This document shows positions 1 through 6,110 of a stretch of DNA of 64,000 nt, one piece after another. The stretch covers positions 875,781 through 939,780 of the forward strand of contig CAVXEA010000003.1 in assembly GCA_963760685.1 (NCBI GenBank), read 5' to 3'. A program made the translations under genes and the position numbers. The stretch comes from an uncultured Acidobacteriota bacterium. GTDB lineage: Bacteria > Acidobacteriota > Vicinamibacteria > Fen-336. Positions within the stretch are counted from its first letter, which is position 1, and each line of letters starts with the position of its first letter. Below the pieces are notes generated by a model. It had not been told where the DNA came from and searched no databases. It saw nothing but the letters and a program-made list of their open reading frames with translations.

Positions 1-63
1 GGGGGCCGCGGCGGCTTTGGCTTCGCGGACCCCGTCAGCTTCATCCCGTTGTTCGCTTGCCTC

Positions 64-81
64 TATGTCATGCCTGACATA
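64..81. promoter_or_regulatory. Inverted repeat TATGTCA-N4-TGACATA about 12 bp upstream of the toxin-antitoxin start. Candidate autoregulatory operator.
   Basis: Perfect 7-bp arms read directly; sits just 5' of the first TA gene. Confidence 0.4.
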
Positions 82-92
82 CGATAGCCGTT

Positions 93-431
93 GTGAGCCC
101 AAAGGACAAGCCCCTTGCCTGGCTCCACGAAGAAATCAAGAGCCCACCGCTGGGTCAGGCGGCGAGGATTGAGGCAGGCTACCTGCTCCGTGAACTCCAG
201 AGGGGCAGGGGTCTGGGCATGCCTCACTCGCGGCCCATGCCTGGTATTGGGCCGCGGTGTCATGAGTTGAGAGTGACGGACCAACACGAGACTTGGCGGA
301 TCATCTACAGGGTGGATGCCGACGCGATTGTCATCGTCGAGGTATTTGCCAAGAAGACCGCGCAGACGCCGCAGGGTGTGCTGGAGACGTGTCGGAAGAG
401 ACTGAAGGAATACGACGATGCGACCAAGTAA
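93..431 (+). CDS. Type II toxin, RelE/HigB-like (Gp49/DUF891-like killer protein)
   Basis: 112 aa. Its C-terminus (...IVIVEVFAKKTAQTPQGVLETCRKRLKEY) is typical of HigB/RelE-fold toxins. GTG start. Overlaps the downstream HTH gene by 14 nt. Confidence 0.6.
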   Translation: MSPKDKPLAWLHEEIKSPPLGQAARIEAGYLLRELQRGRGLGMPHSRPMPGIGPRCHELRVTDQHETWRIIYRVDADAIVIVEVFAKKTAQTPQGVLETCRKRLKEYDDATK

Positions 432-741
432 GCGGCAGAAGCTTGAGCGGAAGGGTTGGCGAATCGGGAGTGTGCGGGACTTTCTTGGCCTTTCTGATGA
501 AGAGGCGGCGTACGTCGAGCTCCGTCTACGGTTGGCAGACAGCCTGAAGAACAGGCGGACCAGGCGGAACCTCACACAGGCGGCATTTGCCAAGTTGATC
601 CAGTCCAGCCAGTCAAGGGTAGCCAAAATGGAGGGTGGCGATCCATCGGTCTCGCTGGACTTGTTGATTCGGTCCCTGTTGGCCCTCGGCGCATCGAGCC
701 GTGACCTGGCGCGCACCATATCCACGGCTTCAGTTCCCTAG
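418..741 (+). CDS. XRE-family HTH antitoxin (HigA-like)
   Basis: 107 aa with HTH motif RRNLTQAAFAKLIQSSQSRVAKME; toxin-first HigBA arrangement. Confidence 0.6.
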   Translation: MRPSKRQKLERKGWRIGSVRDFLGLSDEEAAYVELRLRLADSLKNRRTRRNLTQAAFAKLIQSSQSRVAKMEGGDPSVSLDLLIRSLLALGASSRDLARTISTASVP

Positions 742-749
742 GTCAAGCG

Positions 750-812
750 AACACCGAGATCAGCTGCGAGGGCCGCGGCCGCTATGACCGACGCGGACCT
801 CGTCAGCTGCAT
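750..812. repeat. REP-like imperfect palindromic element, copy A (AACACCGAGATCAGCTG ... CGTCAGCTGCAT)
   Basis: Internal inverted repeat CAGCTGCGAGG / CCTCGTCAGCTG. Same terminal motifs as copy B at 2730-2787; CGTCAGCTKCAT also occurs at 33-44. Confidence 0.5.
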
Positions 813-893
813 TGATGAGATGGACTCCTCCACCGACTCGATCGGCATCGATGTGCCTGAGTCGGTGCTTGGTAAGCAATGGAGGAGCCCATC

Positions 894-1925
894 ATGCAGA
901 ACGATACTCGTATCGCCGTGGACGTGGCAAAGAGCGTGTTCGAGATCGCAGTGTCGGATCGACCTGGGCATGTCGTCCGCCGGGAACGTCTGCCTCGCGC
1001 CCAGTTCCTGGAGTTCTTCGCCAACAACCCAGCCGCCACCGTGTTCATGGAGGCCTGTGGCTCGGCTCACTTCTGGGGACGCCGGATTCAGGATCTCGGC
1101 CATCGGGTGATCCTCATGCCCCCTCATCACGTCCGTCCCTATATCCGAGGCAACAAGACCGATCGTACCGATGCCAAGGGCATCCTGGAAGCCAGCCGTA
1201 ACGAAGACATTCATCCTGTCCCCGTGAAGACCGTGGCCCAGCAGGTCCTGACCTCGCTCCACCGGATGCGCTCGGCCTGGATGACCGAGCGGACGGCCCG
1301 CCTCAATACCCTGCGGGGGCTGCTGCGCGAGCTGGGCGTCTTCATCCCGGTGGGCGCTCGCCAGGTGGTGCCCGCGGTGTGGGCCCTCCTCGAGGACGCA
1401 GACTCGGACCTGCCCGCTGCCCTACGGCCTCTCTTCGCCGAGGCCTGTCACGAGATTCGCGACATCGAGGCGCGCATCAAGGAGGTCGAGGTCCGCCTGG
1501 AGACGATGGCCAAGGAACTCCCGGTCGTGGGGTACCTCCGCACCATTCCCGGCATCGGGCTTCTCACCGCCACCGCCCTCTGGTGCTTCATCGGAGACAT
1601 CCATCGGTTCCCGACTGGTCGCCACCTGGCCAGCTACCTCGGTCTCACTCCGCGGGAGTTCTCGAGCGGACTCAAACGAAATCTGGGTCGCATCTCCAAG
1701 CGCGGTGACGGCTACCTCCGCACCCTCCTCATCCACGGTGCCCGCTCCGTCCTTCTCCACGCCCGCACCAAGCAGCCGGATCGTCTGCGGGAGTGGGCGA
1801 ACAAGCTCGCTCAGACTCACGTCCACAACAAGGCCGCCGTGGCCGTGGCCAACAAGATGGCCCGCATCGTATGGGCCGTCTGGAGCCGACTCACCCCGTT
1901 CACAGAGATCCAGAAGGCTGCGTAG
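894..1925 (+). CDS. IS110-family transposase (DEDD recombinase; Transposase_20 C-terminal domain)
   Basis: 343 aa. N-terminus TRIAVDVAKSVFEIAV, C-terminus LRTIPGIGLLTATALWCFIGDIHRFPTGRHLASYLGLTPREFSSG ... ISKRGDGYLR. GGAGGAG RBS 6 nt upstream of the ATG. Confidence 0.9.
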   Translation: MQNDTRIAVDVAKSVFEIAVSDRPGHVVRRERLPRAQFLEFFANNPAATVFMEACGSAHFWGRRIQDLGHRVILMPPHHVRPYIRGNKTDRTDAKGILEASRNEDIHPVPVKTVAQQVLTSLHRMRSAWMTERTARLNTLRGLLRELGVFIPVGARQVVPAVWALLEDADSDLPAALRPLFAEACHEIRDIEARIKEVEVRLETMAKELPVVGYLRTIPGIGLLTATALWCFIGDIHRFPTGRHLASYLGLTPREFSSGLKRNLGRISKRGDGYLRTLLIHGARSVLLHARTKQPDRLREWANKLAQTHVHNKAAVAVANKMARIVWAVWSRLTPFTEIQKAA

Positions 1926-2279
1926 ATACGAACGGCCTACGACCACGGCGCATTGATGAAAGGAGTTCTCGCCCAGGGCTGCAAGCGTAAAGTCGCGTGA
2001 CGGCAGAACAGGTCGGACCGGCGCAGGGACAGCCGATAACAACTTGTGGCCTTCGAGGCCGCTGCATCGATTGGCTCCCTGCGCGCGGATTCCGTCATGG
2101 CCCGGAGCCCTCGGGGGCTCCTTCAATGAGGCCGGAGATACGTCTGCAGTCCGCCCCGTTCCCAACACGCGACTCGCTTCCCGCCACGGCTCGACTATGA
2201 AGAAAGCAAACGGCTAGCGATTTCTCACTTGACAGGAGGAGTCCAGATACTCGTTGTTGGACGGCATGTGCTCTCGGTT
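1926..2279 (+). ncRNA. Candidate IS110-family bridge/seek RNA in the 3' non-coding tail
   Basis: Non-coding 350 bp directly downstream of the recombinase, with a strong hairpin GGAGCCC-TCG-GGGGCTCC near 2102-2125. Position matches ncRNAs of IS1111-type elements. Structure not modelled. Confidence 0.35.
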
Positions 2280-2711
2280 TCAATTCGAGCGAGCCTCGCA
2301 AGGGACAATCAGACAGCAAGCGAGCTCCGATTCCTGCCACTCCCCACTGGGCAGCCTGGTGTATGACACGCACCCCTTTTCGTTCGCCACACGTTCGACT
2401 ACCAAGCCCTCCCACCGGATGCGACGCTGCCTAGCAATCGCTTCGACGAATACCACCGGTACACCTCTTGAGGAGTCTTCCACGCGAAGATCGCGCCAAA
2501 TCTCGCGAATCTCCGTAAGTAGTGGCTCCGGAACGGACGCGTCCGTCTGGTACTCGAACCACACATAGCGCGACTCCGCCGATCCGACGACCGCCTGTGC
2601 GGTCACTTCAACAACCCGACCTGACGACAGTGCACGTGGCTTCGCCTGCCGATGATCAGGCAACGTACAACTAAGCGATAAGGCCGTGAAGAGCACGACG
2701 ATCCGTCTCAT
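2280..2711 (-). CDS. Small secreted lipoprotein, hypothetical
   Basis: 143 aa with signal peptide plus lipobox MRRIVVLFTALSLSC. Confidence 0.5.
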   Translation of the reverse strand: MRRIVVLFTALSLSCTLPDHRQAKPRALSSGRVVEVTAQAVVGSAESRYVWFEYQTDASVPEPLLTEIREIWRDLRVEDSSRGVPVVFVEAIARQRRIRWEGLVVERVANEKGCVSYTRLPSGEWQESELACCLIVPCEARSN

Positions 2712-2729
2712 CGGGATTGATGTCCGTCC

Positions 2730-2787
2730 AACACCGAGATCAGCTGGGAACGCGACCGTCGTCGGCCGCGCGTTTCGTCAGCTGCAT
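2730..2787. repeat. REP-like palindromic element, copy B
   Basis: Starts AACACCGAGATCAGCTG and ends CGTCAGCTGCAT, like copy A. Internal repeat CAGCTGGGAACGCG / CGCGTTTCGTCAGCTG. Confidence 0.5.
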
Positions 2788-2841
2788 CTCGTTGTTCTAC
2801 GGCGCGCCCATGATACCCGCTCCACGAGTAGCGTCTCGATC

Positions 2842-3261
2842 CTAGTATGAGCGAATGGTGAAGAAGGATCCGCCCTCGCGAATACACTGGACGCGCCCAG
2901 TGCGGTCGAAGATGACAAGGCCGTCATTGGCGAACCAATGGCTATAGATCCACGCCTCTCCGACAGGCTGAGTCCTGCAGCCCTCTTCGGGCCGGGCCCT
3001 GTCTGCCCACACCTGCCCGTCGATGTCGCGCGTGGAGGGTGGCCCTAGTCGCTGCAGCACCACGGCGCTCGAGTCTGAGCGGGCGATGGCGGCGGCAACG
3101 CCACTTGGTCTACCACCGTACACGGCAAAGCCCACCAGCCCAGCTACGCCGAGGGTAGGGATGACCCAACACGCCAGAACGATGACCCAGAACATCATCC
3201 GAACCGTCGGCCTGGCAGGAGACGGCCTGAGACGTTCGGGTTCGCCGTGCGCCTCTTCCAC
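2842..3261 (-). CDS. Hypothetical small membrane protein
   Basis: 139 aa with one clear TM helix (MMFWVIVLACWVIPTLGVAGLVGFAVY); ORF only. Confidence 0.35.
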   Translation of the reverse strand: MEEAHGEPERLRPSPARPTVRMMFWVIVLACWVIPTLGVAGLVGFAVYGGRPSGVAAAIARSDSSAVVLQRLGPPSTRDIDGQVWADRARPEEGCRTQPVGEAWIYSHWFANDGLVIFDRTGRVQCIREGGSFFTIRSY

Positions 3262-3754
3262 GCGTCGCTCTCAGTTCACACGTCCGTAGAACACGGGATT
3301 AAGCTGCGGCCGCGCGTCCAGTTTGCCGTCGCGCGGCCGTCAGCTCCTGAGAAATGAGTTGTCAAGAGAATACTCTTCCCGCGCGCCCGCGCAATCACTT
3401 GCAACGGGCGAATGTTGACACGTGCGAGAGAGCTCGTCCTGGAGGCATCGGCCCACGCGAATGGTTCGATGAGGGCTGGTCCCACGACGACGTCTGGTAG
3501 CGATCGGCCAACCTCGACCTGCTCGACCTTAAAGCCGTTGGTGCGATCTCCCGCAGTGCGGGCGCGCCAAGCTCCTGACTGGGCCTCTGTGGGCCAAGGC
3601 TTTAGTCGGCACTCCGAGGGGGCATAACCTTCAATCGGGGTCTTCCCGTCGCGTCCAGGTGACCAGCTGACAGCTGGATGCTCTCCCTCGAACCTTTCTC
3701 GAGCAGCAACGGTGGACCTGCTTCCAGACCTCGTCGCCTCACGCCTGAGACTCT

Positions 3755-4753
3755 CTAAGGCTGTTCGACGACCGCGTGCCGCTTCGAGTCGTACACCTCC
3801 TGGTGTTTCCACATCGAGAGCACCGTCGCAGCGATGCGTCGGGCCAGGGTCAATCGCGCCAGAGGCGGCTTGATCCCCTTCTCGATCATTCGCTGGTAGT
3901 GGGCGTGCAGCGGATCGTCGGGCAACTGCGTGATCACCGTCATCGCCGCACCCTTGAACACAGACTTCAACAGAGGCTGGCGTTTCCGGCTCAAGCCGCG
4001 GGTGGACAGGTTCTGTGACCGCTCCAGGCCACCCTTCCTCCCCGGTCTCCAGTCTGCAGACGAGCGCGTGACGATCCCGAGCCCGCAGTAGCTCCAGAAC
4101 TGTTGCCGAGTCCGGAATCGATCGGGCACCGCCACGATCGCGACCACCTGCGCCGTCCGAATGGGACCCAATCCTGGCGCCGTTAGCAGTCTCCGGATGA
4201 TCGGATGCGACTTCGACTCCGTCAGCAGCCAACGCTCCGCTTCGTCTCGTGCAGGCACCACCAGATCCAGTTGCCGCGCCAGAATCTCCGCAAGCTGCCG
4301 GTAGGGGCCACTCAACCTTGCCAGCCATCCATCCCGGCGTTCCGGGTCGTAGACCCCAGCATCCGCGACGATCCCTCGCCCCAGGAACACCGCCTTCAAC
4401 CGATTCTTGGCACGCACCACGTCGGTGACCGCGAAGTTGTACGCGCGCACTGCCGTACGCAGTGCCGCCAGGTGATTCGGTGCCTTGAAGACCCGCGTCT
4501 CCACCGCCCCCACTCGAAGCTCCTCCGCTCGTGCGAACGCGCGCTTGATCCAGGCGACGTAGGCTTTCTCGGTGCGGGGACTGTAGTGGCGAGTCCGAAT
4601 CGCCGCCCGCACTCGATCGAGGAGTCGCACTGGAGCGGGCGGGATGACGCGCGTGACCGACCTGCCGCCGGAACCAAGCTCGGACGAGTCGTCAGGAGGG
4701 ACCGCGAGTCCCGGTCTGTGGCTTGAAGGTGGTTGGGGCCTGCTTTCCCGCAC
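3755..4753 (-). pseudogene. Chimeric or degenerate ORF: tyrosine-recombinase (integron-integrase-like) N-terminal SAM domain fused to an IS110 transposase C-terminal domain; lacks the DEDD catalytic N-terminus
   Basis: N-terminus LLDRVRAAIRTRHYSPRTEKAYVAWIKRAF matches the IntI/Phage_int_SAM_4 motif RxxHYSxRTExAYVxW. C-terminal half (IIRRLLTAPGLGPIRTAQVVAIVAVPDRFRTRQQFWSYCGLGIVTRSSADW) is IS110 Transposase_20. Confidence 0.6.
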
Positions 4754-4943
4754 TTCCTTCCTCCCCTCGACCCCTGAAGGTCCCTGCCTTGGTCCCGCTC
4801 GATGGCCATCGGGGAGAGCGGCTGCCAGCGCCTACCCTAGCCGAAGGCCGGGACAGGGGAGGACCGAATTCTCTTGCCATGGAGGCCGCCGGCAGTTGAA
4901 GGCGTTCAAGCTCGATCCGGTGGAGCTGCGCCAGGTAAGTCAC

Positions 4944-4955
4944 GCCCCGCGGGGC
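4944..4955 (-). terminator. GC palindrome GCCCCGCGGGGC just 3' of alr. Possible terminator hairpin.
   Basis: Perfect 12-bp palindrome 13 nt after the alr stop; no clear U-tract. Confidence 0.25.
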
Positions 4956-4967
4956 GCGCGGGCGGTC

Positions 4968-6110
4968 TCAGGGCTCGTAGAGGCGGGGGACGCGATCGTT
5001 GATGGCGGTCAGCACTTCATAGGGGATCGTTCCCGCCCACGCCGCGAGCTCCTCCACGGTGAGGCGCGCGCCCTGCTGCTCGCCGATGAGGACGACCTCG
5101 TCTCCGTTGTAGCCGGTGCCGTCCTCGATGTTCACCATCATCTGGTCCATGCAGATGGCGCCTACCTGCGCGACCCGCTGGCCGCGAAGGATCACCTGCG
5201 CCCGGTTCGACATGCTGCGGAAGTAGCCGTCGCCGTATCCCACCGGCACGGTCACCACGCGGACGCGATGATCGCTCTTCCAGGTGGAGCCGTAGCTGAC
5301 GGGGCTGCCCGCCTCGACGAGCTTGAAGTAGACGACGCGGGAGATCCAGGACAGCGCGGGGGTGACCTCGACCACGTGGGGAGCGTCCGCGTAGGGGTAG
5401 ACGCCGTACAGCAGGATGCCCGGGCGCACGAGGTCCAGATGGCTCTCGGGCAGACGCAGGATCGCCGCCGAGTTGGCCATGTGTCGCTGGGGCACGGCCA
5501 GGGAGCGTCGCTCGTAGAAACGCAGCACTTCTTCGAAGCGCGTGAGCTGGCGGCGCGCGTCAGCCAGGTCTTCCGCGTCGGCGTTCGCGAAGTGAGAATA
5601 GATCCCCTCCACCTCGACGTGAGGAGAACGGGCGGCGGCCTCCAGCAGGCCCTCCGCGTTGTAGTAGTGGACGCCGATGCGCTCCATGCCGGTGTCGATC
5701 TTGAGGTGAACGCGGGCCCGGACCTTCCGGGCCGCCGCAGCTTCCTCCACGTCGCGCAGTCGAGCCAGCGAAGGCACGGTCTGGGTGAGACCGTGGTCGA
5801 GAAAGAGCGGGATCTGACGCGTCCAGACGCCGCCAAAGACGAGGATGGGGTTCAGGATGCCGAGCCGACGGAGCGCGATCCCCTCTTCGACCAGGGCCAC
5901 GCCGAATGCGTCGGCCAGCGGAGCCAGGGCGCGCGCCACGGCCTCGAGGCCGTGGCCGTAGGCGTTGGCCTTCAGGATCGGCATGACCCGCGCGGGGGCG
6001 ACGTGCCTCTTGACCGCCAGGAGGTTGGCGCGGAGGCGGGAGAGGCGCACCACGGCGTAGGTGGGGCGGAGGCGGGCTTCCTCGGGGGTCAGGGGCGAGG
6101 GGTCGATCAC
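4968..6110 (-). CDS. alr: Alanine racemase
   Basis: 380 aa with PLP motif VMPILKANAYGHG and full-length similarity to Alr. Confidence 0.9.
   Translation of the reverse strand: MIDPSPLTPEEARLRPTYAVVRLSRLRANLLAVKRHVAPARVMPILKANAYGHGLEAVARALAPLADAFGVALVEEGIALRRLGILNPILVFGGVWTRQIPLFLDHGLTQTVPSLARLRDVEEAAAARKVRARVHLKIDTGMERIGVHYYNAEGLLEAAARSPHVEVEGIYSHFANADAEDLADARRQLTRFEEVLRFYERRSLAVPQRHMANSAAILRLPESHLDLVRPGILLYGVYPYADAPHVVEVTPALSWISRVVYFKLVEAGSPVSYGSTWKSDHRVRVVTVPVGYGDGYFRSMSNRAQVILRGQRVAQVGAICMDQMMVNIEDGTGYNGDEVVLIGEQQGARLTVEELAAWAGTIPYEVLTAINDRVPRLYEP

What the first reader, a model, noticed from the sequence alone, without database searches (positions are those of the whole stretch)
813..2279. 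Intact IS110-family (IS1111-like) element with a 350-bp 3' non-coding tail: candidate bridge/seek RNA
The DEDD transposase at 894-1925 is full length. It has only about 80 bp of 5' leader but about 350 bp of non-coding DNA after its stop, which is the layout of IS1111-type members. Those members encode a structured guide ncRNA downstream of the recombinase that pairs with both target and donor DNA. The tail contains a strong hairpin (GGAGCCC-TCG-GGGGCTCC near 2102-2125). The element sits beside REP-like palindromes, the known preferred targets of this family. If an ncRNA is present, its loops should be complementary to the flanking REP-like core.
Basis: partly seen in the sequence, partly recalled or inferred. 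Interest (0 to 1): 0.6.

Follow-up and report, generated by a model that had tools for sequence, protein, structure and literature searches.

The report
attC-targeting IS1111 element with guide RNA
This is an intact jumping gene of the IS1111 type that carries, after its transposase gene, a folded guide RNA whose loops match the integron recombination site (attC) it sits in; the kind is already known, and this is a new environmental member of it.

Summary
The element is window 813-2249 (1437 bp), not 813-2279. The transposase is 894-1925, with 11-bp subterminal inverted repeats at 821-831 and 2235-2245.

The 3' tail holds a conserved structured RNA at 1997-2153. A covariance model built from it finds the same RNA after the transposase gene in 100 related elements. 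These include ISPa25 and ISPa21; ISPa21 is about 90% identical to ISKpn4, whose seekRNA was purified experimentally. On that alignment 84.6% of cells pair and 39 of 42 pairs show compensatory changes.

Two variable loops match the flanks. AACAACUUGU is complementary to the right flank, and GCUGCAUC equals the left flank plus one base. Across 37 distinct elements the loops track their own flanks (0 of 20,000 permutations).

The flanking palindromes are not REPs. They are integron attC sites in a gene-cassette array. The insertion lies 6 nt from the RYYYAAC box, the same position and orientation as ISPa25 in a class 1 integron.

Verdict: a new environmental member of the known IS1111-attC group with a seekRNA/bridge RNA (45-51% transposase identity to named members). 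RNA expression and activity are inferred, not shown. Interest is modest.

The parts
745..812 (.). Left part of the interrupted integron attC site. It ends in ...CGTCAGCTGCAT, the left target flank.
   Evidence: Imperfect palindrome shared with sister sites. The reconstructed site matches the intact sister attC at 2724-2802 over the 21 nt CGTCAGCTGCATCTCGTTGTT. The intact sister folds as a bulged hairpin as single-stranded DNA (z -6.6 and -4.3).
813..2249 (+). The complete insertion sequence, 1437 bp, IS1111 type.
   Evidence: Ends defined from more than 25 independent insertions of relatives. There is no target duplication when compared with the sister attC.
813..820 (+). Left terminal extension TGATGAGA. 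With base 821 it reads TGaTGAGAT, an extended -10-like motif for the circle-junction promoter.
   Evidence: Conserved as TGATGnnA in relatives. It lies 18 nt from the TTGACA at the right end once the ends are joined. Promoter function is inferred by analogy with ISEc11 (PMC11187229).
821..831 (+). Left subterminal inverted repeat (IRL), TGGACTCCTCC.
   Evidence: Perfect 11-nt inverted repeat with 2235-2245. ISPa25 has the identical repeat.
819..893 (+). Leader hairpin in which IRL pairs with a third, inverted copy of the repeat (881-891, GGAGGAGCCCA) that overlaps the ribosome-binding site.
   Evidence: Repeat pair I20. RNA fold -42.2 kcal/mol, z -4.5. A transcript starting at 828 leaves the AGGAG unpaired. 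The third copy changes together with the repeat sequence in several distant relatives.
894..1925 (+). DEDD transposase/recombinase, 343 aa, with the GL-P----SG motif (GLTPREFSSG).
   Evidence: Pfam and NCBIfam NF033542 at 334.8 bits. Identity is 50.7% to the ISPa25 transposase and 45% to the ISKpn4 transposase.
1997..2153 (+). Conserved structured non-coding RNA (long seekRNA / bridge RNA), seven helices P0-P6.
   Evidence: Model R1 matches 100 tails at full length. Covariation: 84.6% paired, 39 of 42 pairs with changes on both sides, slid controls 28-40%. RNAalifold on a structure-blind alignment found P0 and P2-P5.
2022..2083 (+). Target-binding module: outer stems P2 and P3, an internal loop, and hairpin P4 (2047-2061).
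   Evidence: Folds this way on its own, -33.5 kcal/mol, z -5.0. Helices 3-5 covary.
2038..2047 (+). 5' guide loop AACAACUUGU, complementary to the top strand of the right flank. AACAAC pairs with GTTGTT 2253-2258 and G2046 with C2250, giving 7 of 9.
   Evidence: Read directly from the sequence. It changes with the flank in relatives, for example L001 AACAAG with CTTGTT and L003 AACAACCG with CGGTTGTT.
2061..2069 (+). 3' guide loop GCUGCAUCG. It is identical to the left flank GCTGCAT (806-812) plus the first right-flank base C2250, so it would pair with the bottom strand (8 of 8).
   Evidence: Loop-flank permutation tests gave 0 of 20,000.
2092..2098 (+). CCGUCAU, the 3' strand of helix P0, which pairs with GUGACGG 1997-2003. 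It is also complementary to the left end of the element (TGATG, with one G-T wobble), so it is a candidate left-end (donor) guide.
   Evidence: P0 covaries (helix 1). The complement tracks the element's own left end weakly (4.94 against 4.35; 1 of 20,000 permutations).
2104..2121 (+). It is a scaffold element inside stem P5 (2099-2102 with 2130-2133).
   Evidence: Helices 6 and 7 (99.4% and 85.5% paired, with compensatory changes).
2134..2151 (+). 3' single-stranded segment GGAGAUACGUCUGCAGUC. AGAUA equals the right end of the element (A2245 + GATA 2246-2249), so it is a candidate right-end (donor) guide. It is followed by the conserved CUGCAGUC.
   Evidence: This segment tracks the element's own right end across 35 elements (5.71 against 3.68; 0 of 20,000).
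2229..2234 (+). TTGACA, a -35-like hexamer facing out of the right end (circle-junction promoter).
   Evidence: TTGAC or TTGC is conserved immediately before the right repeat in relatives and in ISPa25. No sigma-70-like promoter was found on the + strand of the linear element.
2235..2245 (+). Right subterminal inverted repeat (IRR), GGAGGAGTCCA.
2246..2249 (+). Right terminal extension GATA.
   Evidence: Conserved in the relatives; the following base varies.
2250..2265 (.). Right part of the interrupted attC: CTCGTT followed by GTTGGAC (2256-2262), the complement of the RYYYAAC box when read on the - strand.
   Evidence: Complementary to CCGTCCAAC at 2724-2732 at the far end of the same cassette (I16), the hallmark of an integron cassette.

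Best explanation
Window 813-2249 is an intact insertion sequence of the IS1111 group of the IS110 family, from the subgroup that inserts into integron attC sites.

Proposed mechanism (inferred):
- The element encodes a DEDD recombinase and, in the same transcript downstream of the stop codon, a guide RNA of about 157 nt (1997-2153), of the seekRNA/bridge RNA kind.
- The conserved helices of the RNA are the protein-binding scaffold.
- One internal loop holds two short programmable guides. The 5' guide pairs with the top strand to the right of the insertion point (GTTGTT...C). The 3' guide pairs with the bottom strand to the left of it (GCTGCAT, plus C).
- Two further single-stranded or switchable segments match the element's own left end (TGATG) and right end (AGATA).
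- After excision as a circle, the joined ends form a promoter: TTGACA in the right end, 18 nt, then TGnTGAGAT in the left end. This promoter drives both transposase and RNA.
- The RNA-protein complex then inserts the circle 6 nt from the RYYYAAC box of a matching attC, without target duplication.

Shown here: the anatomy, the RNA structure with covariation, guide-flank and guide-end co-variation across relatives, the attC nature of the target, and homology to elements whose RNA was purified.

Inferred: transcription, processing, RNA-protein binding, the junction promoter, and present-day activity.
For: - Domains and ends.
- RNA structure: a structure-blind alignment gives P0 and P2-P5 with 13 compensatory pairs. 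The 100-sequence model alignment gives 84.6% pairing, 39 of 42 compensatory pairs, and slid controls of 28-40%.
- Strand: many G-U pairs fit only the + strand transcript.
- Homology: the same model matches ISPa25 (100.7 bits) and ISPa21 (85.5 bits) at full length. ISPa21 is about 90% identical to ISKpn4 (supplementary identity table). ISKpn4 and ISPst6 seekRNAs co-purified with their transposases, and the ISEc11 RNA was essential for transposition (PMC11187229).
- Guide order: top-strand match 5' of bottom-strand match, as published for IS1111 members (PMC11187229).
- Guide-flank match in the window: 8 of 8 on the left and 7 of 9 on the right.
- Loops track their own flanks: 37 diverse elements, 0 of 20,000 permutations; 29 close relatives in a fixed register, 0 of 20,000.
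- Donor segments: the 3' segment tracks the right end (0 of 20,000); the P0 3' strand tracks the left end (1 of 20,000).
- attC identity and geometry. The position and orientation are the same as ISPa25 in the blaOXA-17 attC of a class 1 integron.
Against: - There is no expression data. No promoter was found inside the linear element, so the RNA must come from the junction promoter or from read-through, which is untested.
- The proposed -10 (TGAGAT) is weak and the spacer is 18 nt.
- The right guide has two internal mismatches in the window. Many relatives match their flanks only partly or with a 1-nt shift.
- The donor-guide assignment is tentative. The right-end match is only 5 nt. The left-end guide is also one strand of an RNA helix. 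In ISPa25 that helix changed while the left end did not.
- Rfam 15 has no family that matches, so no curated model confirms the RNA class.
- Only one copy is in the window and no identical copy is on record, so recent activity is unproven.
- The 100-sequence alignment was fitted to the model, which favours pairing.
Confidence: 0.88

Rival explanations
1. The element is a REP-targeting IS1111 member, like ISPa11, and the flanking palindromes are chromosomal REP elements.
For: The flanks are repeated, GC-rich, imperfect palindromes. REPs are known targets of some family members (PMC11187229).
Against: - The palindromes end in RYYYAAC and GTTRRRY boxes.
- Each cassette's terminal box is complementary to the box at its other end (I9 and I16), which is specific to integron cassettes.
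- The sites separate short ORFs, including a toxin-antitoxin pair.
- An integron-integrase N-terminal remnant lies beside the array.
- The closest named relatives are attC-targeting elements.
- The insertion point relative to the AAC box equals that of ISPa25 in a class 1 integron.
Confidence: 0.03
2. The conserved 3' tail acts only as DNA (transposase-binding sites or end sequences) or as an ordinary 3' untranslated region, with no guide function. On this view the loop-flank matches arise because pieces of target were copied into the element.
For: No expression data exist. The tail lies inside the element next to the right end. Rfam gives no match.
Against: - Compensatory changes preserve RNA helices, including G-U pairs that would be A-C on the other strand.
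- The variable positions sit exactly in the two loops and change with the flanks across 37 elements.
- One loop is complementary to the flank rather than identical, which copying would not give.
- Homologous RNAs were purified with their transposases and shown to be required in related elements (PMC11187229).
Confidence: 0.04
3. The element has the right anatomy but is an inactive relic, stranded in a decaying integron.
For: - There is a single copy in 64 kb (one search found one match in the window).
- No identical protein is on record.
- A sister attC 530 bp away with the identical 21-nt target is unoccupied.
- The neighbouring integrase is destroyed.
Against: The ORF, both repeats, both extensions, all RNA helices and the guide-target match are intact. 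Relatives with 76-93% identity are found in many metagenomes, in different attC sites.
Confidence: 0.2

Closest known systems
ISPa25 (IS1111-attC group; Pseudomonas aeruginosa class 1 integrons)
   Same: - Best named protein match, 50.7% identity.
- Identical 11-nt subterminal repeat TGGACTCCTCC and the same TGATG left end.
- TTGAC just before the right repeat.
- The 3' RNA matches model R1 at full length, 100.7 bits.
- Inserted 6 nt after the RYYYAAC box of an attC, with the transposase gene antisense to the cassettes.
   Different: - Only about 51% protein identity.
- Right extension TATA, against GATA here.
- Guide loops AACAAUGC and CUUGAACG are tuned to the class 1 type attC (CTTGAG|CGACTTGTT), against AACAACUUG and CUGCAUCG for GCTGCAT|CTCGTTGTT here.
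- Clinical plasmid host, against a chromosomal array in a GC-rich environmental genome.
ISKpn4 / ISPst6 / ISPa21 (IS1111-attC group with experimentally purified seekRNA)
   Same: - Same family, layout and attC targeting, with the RNA downstream of the transposase gene.
- The ISPa21 tail matches R1 at 85.5 bits.
- Guide order is top-strand match first (PMC11187229).
   Different: 45% identity to the ISKpn4 transposase. The repeat (ATGGACTCTCCCC) and the guide loops differ. Their RNA was shown biochemically; here it is only predicted.
IS621 bridge RNA (IS110 group; PMC11208160)
   Same: [quoted passage not shown] The element circularises and forms a junction promoter.
   Different: - In IS621 the RNA lies upstream of the recombinase gene.
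- The order of the guides is reversed.
- Subterminal repeats are 2-3 bp.
- A shared CT core is duplicated at both ends.
- Here no shared core can be read from the junctions, and the donor-matching nucleotides sit in a multi-branch arrangement, as noted for IS1111 members in PMC11208160.
ISPa11 (REP-targeting IS1111 member)
   Same: IS1111 layout and a downstream seekRNA; it targets a folded palindromic repeat (PMC11187229).
   Different: Its target is a REP, not an attC. The window's flanks fail the REP reading and meet the attC criteria.

Membership tests
IS110 family, IS1111 group | DEDD (RuvC-like) N-terminal domain plus C-terminal PF02371 domain carrying the GL-P----S/T-G motif | tested here: met
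   PF01548 and PF02371. NF033542 at 334.8 bits, cut-off 140. GLTPREFSSG is present in the translation.
IS110 family, IS1111 group | Subterminal inverted repeats of about 11-13 bp with asymmetric terminal extensions (7 and 3 bp in the literature) | tested here: met
   Perfect 11-bp repeats at 821-831 and 2235-2245. Extensions are 8 and 4 nt as counted here; they become 7 and 3 if the repeat is counted as 12 nt with a terminal mismatch. Asymmetric as described in PMC11187229.
IS110 family, IS1111 group | The longer non-coding region lies downstream of the transposase gene | tested here: met
   81 bp upstream against 324 bp downstream.
IS110 family, IS1111 group | No target-site duplication | tested here: met
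   Joining the flanks gives CGTCAGCTGCAT|CTCGTTGTT, identical over 21 nt to the intact sister attC at 2776-2796. This is indirect, because the true empty site is not available.
IS110 family, IS1111 group | Circular intermediate with a promoter formed at the junction | not testable with these tools
   TTGACA 2229-2234 and TGnTGAGAT 813-821 would lie 18 nt apart in a circle. The -35 is conserved in relatives. Circle formation itself needs an experiment.
IS1111-attC subgroup | Insertion at a fixed position and orientation in integron attC sites | tested here: met
   The flanks meet attC criteria. The insertion is 6 nt from the RYYYAAC box, antisense to the cassettes, as for ISPa25 in L160. Most of the close relatives checked also sit in ...CAGCTTCAT|CnnnTTGTTnGG sites.
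IS1111-attC subgroup | Transposase clusters with named members (ISPa25, ISPa21, ISKpn4, ISPst6) | tested here: met
   These are the best named matches in the plasmid collection: ISPa25 50.7%, ISPa21 46.8%, ISKpn4 45%. No tree was built.
seekRNA / bridge RNA | Conserved secondary structure with covariation in the long non-coding end | tested here: met
seekRNA / bridge RNA | [quoted passage not shown] | tested here: met
   Window: 7 of 9 and 8 of 8, overlapping at C2250. Family-wide co-variation gave 0 of 20,000.
seekRNA / bridge RNA | Segments matching the element's own ends (donor recognition) | tested here: inconclusive
   The right-end match co-varies strongly and the left-end match weakly. 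The matches are short (5 nt), and the left-end guide is also part of RNA helix P0.
seekRNA / bridge RNA | The RNA is made, binds the transposase and is required for transposition | not testable with these tools
   RNA binding was shown for ISKpn4, ISPst6 and ISPa11, and binding plus a requirement for transposition for ISEc11 (PMC11187229). Here this rests on homology only.
Integron attC site (for the flanks) | RYYYAAC ... GTTRRRY boxes, an imperfect palindrome with extrahelical bases, and a terminal box complementary to the start of its own cassette | tested here: met
   GTCCAAC/GTTGGAC, GTAGAAC/GTTCTAC and AGCGAAC/GTTCGCT pairs (I9 and I16). Bulged hairpin folds. No curated attC model was available in the tools.
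REP element (for the flanks) | Short palindromes dispersed in intergenic regions around the chromosome, not organised as cassettes | tested here: not met
   The two 17- and 21-nt arm motifs that were searched (up to 3 mismatches) occur only at three of the four sites in 1-3360 and nowhere else in the 64 kb. The fourth site, at about 3285-3360, is diverged and was recognised by eye.
Any Rfam 15 family | Match to a curated covariance model | tested here: not met
   No match in 1926-2249 even at E up to 10. Nothing in the output points to a bridge RNA or seekRNA family in this release.

The most novel reading that the evidence does not exclude
The element may carry a two-layer RNA switch that ties activity to the excised circle.

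1. The left inverted repeat pairs with a third, inverted copy of itself that overlaps the ribosome-binding site (819-893, -42 kcal/mol). Read-through transcripts from the neighbouring cassette would then be untranslatable. A transcript started at the junction promoter lacks the 5' half of the hairpin and would be translated.
2. In the guide RNA, the segment complementary to the element's left end (CCGUCAU) is held in helix P0 by an RNA copy of that end (GUGACGG). This would act as a built-in decoy that must be displaced before donor DNA can be bound.

Both features change together with the end sequences in several distant relatives. I did not find either described for IS1111 elements in the two papers read.
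Probability: 0.25. Interest if true: 0.45.

Novelty: new member of a known kind. Interest (0 to 1): 0.3.

Why it matters
RNA-guided IS110/IS1111 recombinases are being developed as programmable genome-editing tools, so well-annotated natural variants with defined ends, RNA scaffold, guides and target are useful raw material. This element and its roughly 50 environmental relatives form a lineage only 45-51% identical to the clinical IS1111-attC elements. They keep the same RNA scaffold with guide loops retuned to a different attC consensus, and in two relatives to a non-attC repeat. That gives a natural series of reprogrammed guides on one scaffold. For integron biology, it shows that attC-targeting elements also populate chromosomal cassette arrays in environmental bacteria, where they split attC sites and could freeze cassettes in place. 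None of this changes current understanding; it extends it.

Tried and rejected
- Rfam 15 scan of 1-5000 at E up to 10: only chance-level microRNA and riboswitch matches, none in the tail.\n- Exact-protein look-ups of the transposase with either start codon: nothing on record, so no identical second copy could be used to define the ends.\n- The closest relative, L080 (93%): its left end is rearranged and was of no use for the boundary.\n- An outer helix for the 3' half (CGGAU 2085-2089 with GUCCG 2149-2153), predicted by single-sequence folding: only 33% of cells pair across relatives. Rejected.\n- A helix between the 5' end (1999-2007) and CUGCAGUC (2143-2151), from the minimum-energy fold: 48% paired. 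Rejected.\n- A shared core nucleotide or dinucleotide duplicated at both junctions, as in IS621: no candidate (T, AT or A) reproduces both observed junctions from the sister attC sequence. Rejected for this element, although the L043-type relatives are compatible with a TG core.\n- Coding potential of the small ORFs in the tail (1997-2200, 2044-2217): rejected, because relatives differ by indels that are not multiples of three and by paired compensatory changes.\n- An internal promoter for the RNA: none found on the + strand.\n- Tetu and Holmes 2008 (PMC2447020) could not be read. The known IS1111-attC insertion position was therefore taken from the ISPa25 locus itself.
Full report
**1. What is in the sequence**

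Window 813-2249 (+) is a compact mobile element.
- The ORF 894-1925 has an alternative ATG at 879, and GGAGGAG lies 7-8 nt before 894. It encodes a 343-aa protein with Pfam DEDD_Tnp_IS110 and Transposase_20.
- The protein scores 334.8 bits against NCBIfam NF033542 'IS110 family RNA-guided transposase', cut-off 140. It carries the GL-P----SG motif (GLTPREFSSG).
- Perfect 11-nt inverted repeats, TGGACTCCTCC and GGAGGAGTCCA, lie at 821-831 and 2235-2245. They are subterminal: 8 nt (TGATGAGA) lie outside the left repeat and 4 nt (GATA) outside the right one.
- The leader is 81 bp and the 3' non-coding tail is 324 bp.

**2. The ends**

No identical copy exists in the window or on record, so I used relatives.
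- Scans of genome and metagenome collections returned 159 loci at 38-93% protein identity.
- In more than 25 independent insertions of the close relatives, the conserved sequence starts at TGATG and ends at ...GTCCAGATA. The adjoining bases vary: T/C/G on the left and C/T/G on the right.
- The element is therefore 813-2249, not 813-2279.
- Joining the flanks gives CGTCAGCTGCAT|CTCGTTGTT. This is identical over 21 nt to an intact sister site at 2776-2796, so there is no target duplication, as expected for IS1111 members (PMC11187229).

**3. The tail encodes a conserved structured RNA**

- The tails of relatives align from about 70 nt after the stop codon over about 157 nt, whereas the sequence on either side is variable.
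- RNAalifold on a structure-blind MAFFT alignment of eight tails predicted five of the helices, with 13 compensatory pairs.
- I built covariance model R1 from 42 sequences with seven helices, P0-P6. It matched 100 tails at full length, always downstream of the transposase gene. One of these is window 1997-2153 at 156.8 bits.
- On that alignment 84.6% of cells pair and 39 of 42 pairs show changes on both sides. The covariation score is 0.56. Sliding the partners by 1-3 columns gives 28-40% pairing and scores of 0.05-0.09.
- The alignment is fitted to the model, which favours pairing, but the blind alignment agrees.
- Frequent G-U pairs fit only the + strand transcript.
- Two further helices suggested by single-sequence folding are not kept in relatives (33% and 48% paired).
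- Rfam 15 has no matching family.

**4. The loops are guides**

The module 2022-2083 folds on its own (z -5.0) into two stacked stems, an internal loop and a hairpin.
- The 5' side of the loop, AACAACUUGU (2038-2047), is complementary to the top strand of the right flank. AACAAC pairs with GTTGTT 2253-2258 and G2046 with C2250, giving 7 of 9.
- The 3' side, GCUGCAUC (2061-2068), is identical to the left flank GCTGCAT (806-812) plus C2250, giving 8 of 8. It would therefore pair with the bottom strand.
- The two matches overlap at the insertion point, and the top-strand match comes first. This is the arrangement reported for IS1111 seekRNAs (PMC11187229).
- Across relatives the scaffold is constant while these two loops vary, and they vary with the flanks. 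For 37 elements with distinct loops, the longest exact loop-flank match averages 5.6 + 5.9 nt for an element's own flanks, against 3.3 + 3.4 for other elements' flanks (0 of 20,000 permutations).
- Within 29 close relatives in a fixed register, the figures are 10.0 matches for own flanks against 7.2 for others (0 of 20,000).
- Examples: L003 AACAACCG with CGGTTGTT; L001 AACAAG with CTTGTT. L004 and L123 carry different loops that match a non-attC repeat.

**5. Recognition of the element's own ends**

This part is less certain.
- The single-stranded segment GGAGAUAC (2134-2141) repeats the right end (A + GATA). It tracks the right end across 35 elements (5.7 against 3.7; 0 of 20,000).
- CCGUCAU (2092-2098) is complementary to the left end TGATG. 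It tracks the left end weakly (4.94 against 4.35; 1 of 20,000). It is also the 3' strand of RNA helix P0, which covaries in its own right.
- In ISPa25, P0 changed while the left end did not.

**6. The target is an integron attC, not a REP**

- Each palindrome starts with an RYYYAAC-type box and ends with a GTTRRRY-type box.
- Each box is complementary to the box at the other end of the same cassette: 43-59 with 744-760, and 2250-2264 with 2724-2738 (I9 and I16). GTTCTAC 2794-2800 pairs with GTAGAAC 3287-3293.
- The intact site folds as a bulged hairpin (z -6.6 and -4.3).
- The sites separate short ORFs, among them a Gp49-type toxin with an HTH antitoxin.
- From the position of the extra base and the direction of two cassette ORFs, I infer that the array runs on the - strand. 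This uses the rule, recalled from the literature, that the extrahelical bases lie on the R''-L'' arm.
- To the right of the array, ORF 3755-4753 (-) begins with an integron-integrase N-terminus (residues 37-83). It continues as a truncated IS110-family transposase (residues 79-319), so the integrase is destroyed. Housekeeping genes follow.
- Read on the - strand, the insertion is GTCCAAC-AACGAG|element|ATGCAGCTG, 6 nt after the AAC.

**7. Comparison with known elements**

- The best named matches are ISPa25 (50.7%), ISPa21 (46.8%), ISPa62 and ISPpu25. Identity to the ISKpn4 transposase is 45%.
- ISPa25 in plasmid pHPA0698-3 sits between qacEdelta1 and blaOXA-17 of a class 1 integron. There it reads GGCTAAC-AAGTCG|element|CTCAAGG, also 6 nt after the AAC and antisense to the cassettes.
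- ISPa25 has the identical repeat TGGACTCCTCC, the TGATG start, and TTGAC before the right repeat.
- R1 matches the ISPa25 and ISPa21 tails at 100.7 and 85.5 bits.
- ISPa21 is about 90% identical to ISKpn4. ISKpn4 and ISPst6 seekRNAs were purified with their transposases, and an ISPa25 seekRNA was predicted by alignment (PMC11187229).
- The window element therefore belongs to the IS1111-attC group as a new, distant lineage whose close relatives come from Acidobacteriota and other MAGs and from metagenome contigs.

**8. Expression logic (inferred)**

- No sigma-70-like promoter lies on the + strand of the linear element.
- Joining the ends places TTGACA (2229-2234) 18 nt from TGaTGAGAT (813-821). 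The -35 is conserved in relatives. This resembles the junction promoter known for ISEc11 (PMC11187229).
- In the leader, the left repeat pairs with a third, inverted copy of the repeat that overlaps the ribosome-binding site (-42.2 kcal/mol, z -4.5). A transcript starting at 828 leaves that site open.
- The third copy changes with the repeat sequence in several distant relatives, for example GTGGATGGCTC with GAGCCATCCAC-CATG.
- This would block translation of read-through transcripts from the upstream cassette.

**9. Verdict**

- The kind is already known, and this is a new member of it.
- Not shown here: RNA production, protein binding, circle formation and current activity.

Noticed in passing
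window 1-3370: The left edge of the window is an integron-type gene-cassette array. It has four attC sites (1-60 partial, 745-812 plus 2250-2265 split by the element, 2724-2802, about 3285-3360). The cassettes hold a Gp49/HigB-like toxin with an HTH antitoxin (93-741, + strand) and two unannotatable ORFs (2280-2711 and 2842-3261, - strand). The array continues beyond the window start.
   Followed up: partly
window 3755-4753 (-): A chimeric ORF. Residues 37-83 match the N-terminus of integron integrases. Residues 79-319 match positions 110-342 of the IS110-family transposase model, so the DEDD N-terminal part is missing. It is only 33% identical over 55 aa to the transposase at 894-1925. It looks like a second, unrelated and truncated IS110-family element that destroyed the integrase gene. 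Its ends and any RNA were not examined.
   Followed up: partly
window 2776-2796: An unoccupied sister attC 530 bp from the element carries the identical 21-nt target CGTCAGCTGCATCTCGTTGTT, yet has no insertion. The partial attC at 33-53 differs at 2 positions.
   Followed up: no
window 819-893 and 881-891: A third copy of the terminal repeat (GGAGGAGCCCA) overlaps the ribosome-binding site and pairs with the left repeat in a strong hairpin. Equivalent third copies just before the start codon occur in several distant relatives with different repeat sequences.
   Followed up: partly
L004 941-2310 and L123 (right flank): Two relatives (60-61% identity) sit in a non-attC repeat...CTGGGGT|TGACTCCAGTGGACTCCAGGGGACTGCAGTGG. 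Their guide loops are changed to match (CAAGGAGUC with GACTCC; UGGGGU with TGGGGT). This looks like natural retargeting on the same RNA scaffold.
   Followed up: partly
L007 1706-1762: This relative has a tandem duplication of its right end (GGGGGAGGAGTCCATAGAT, twice). In this element the RNA's 3' segment AUAGAUUAAUG equals right end plus left end (ATAGAT+TAATG), a match to the circle junction that is longer than in the window element.
   Followed up: no
L155 25-180 (-), L049 1002-1159 and 2210-2367, L039 2757-2874, L027 6577-6741, L043 2637-2789: Several loci contain extra matches to the RNA model beyond the one after the transposase gene that brought the locus in: second copies, opposite-strand copies, or partial ones. 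They could be neighbouring elements or solo RNA modules, as reported for the Ssr9 RNA of ISPpu9 (abstract of PMC12288879, listed).
   Followed up: no
window 2144-2151: CUGCAGUC at the 3' end of the RNA is almost invariant across the close clade and common in distant relatives. It does not form a conserved helix with the 5' end. Its role is unexplained.
   Followed up: partly
L161 (ISPa21) about 2420-2500 and 3760-3800: In this ISPa21 copy the 10-nt string ATACGAATTG appears both just before the left repeat and just after the right repeat. The RNA's 3' segment AUAUACGAAU matches right end plus CGAAT. The meaning (true left extension, target duplication, or a remnant of a second copy) was not resolved.
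   Followed up: no
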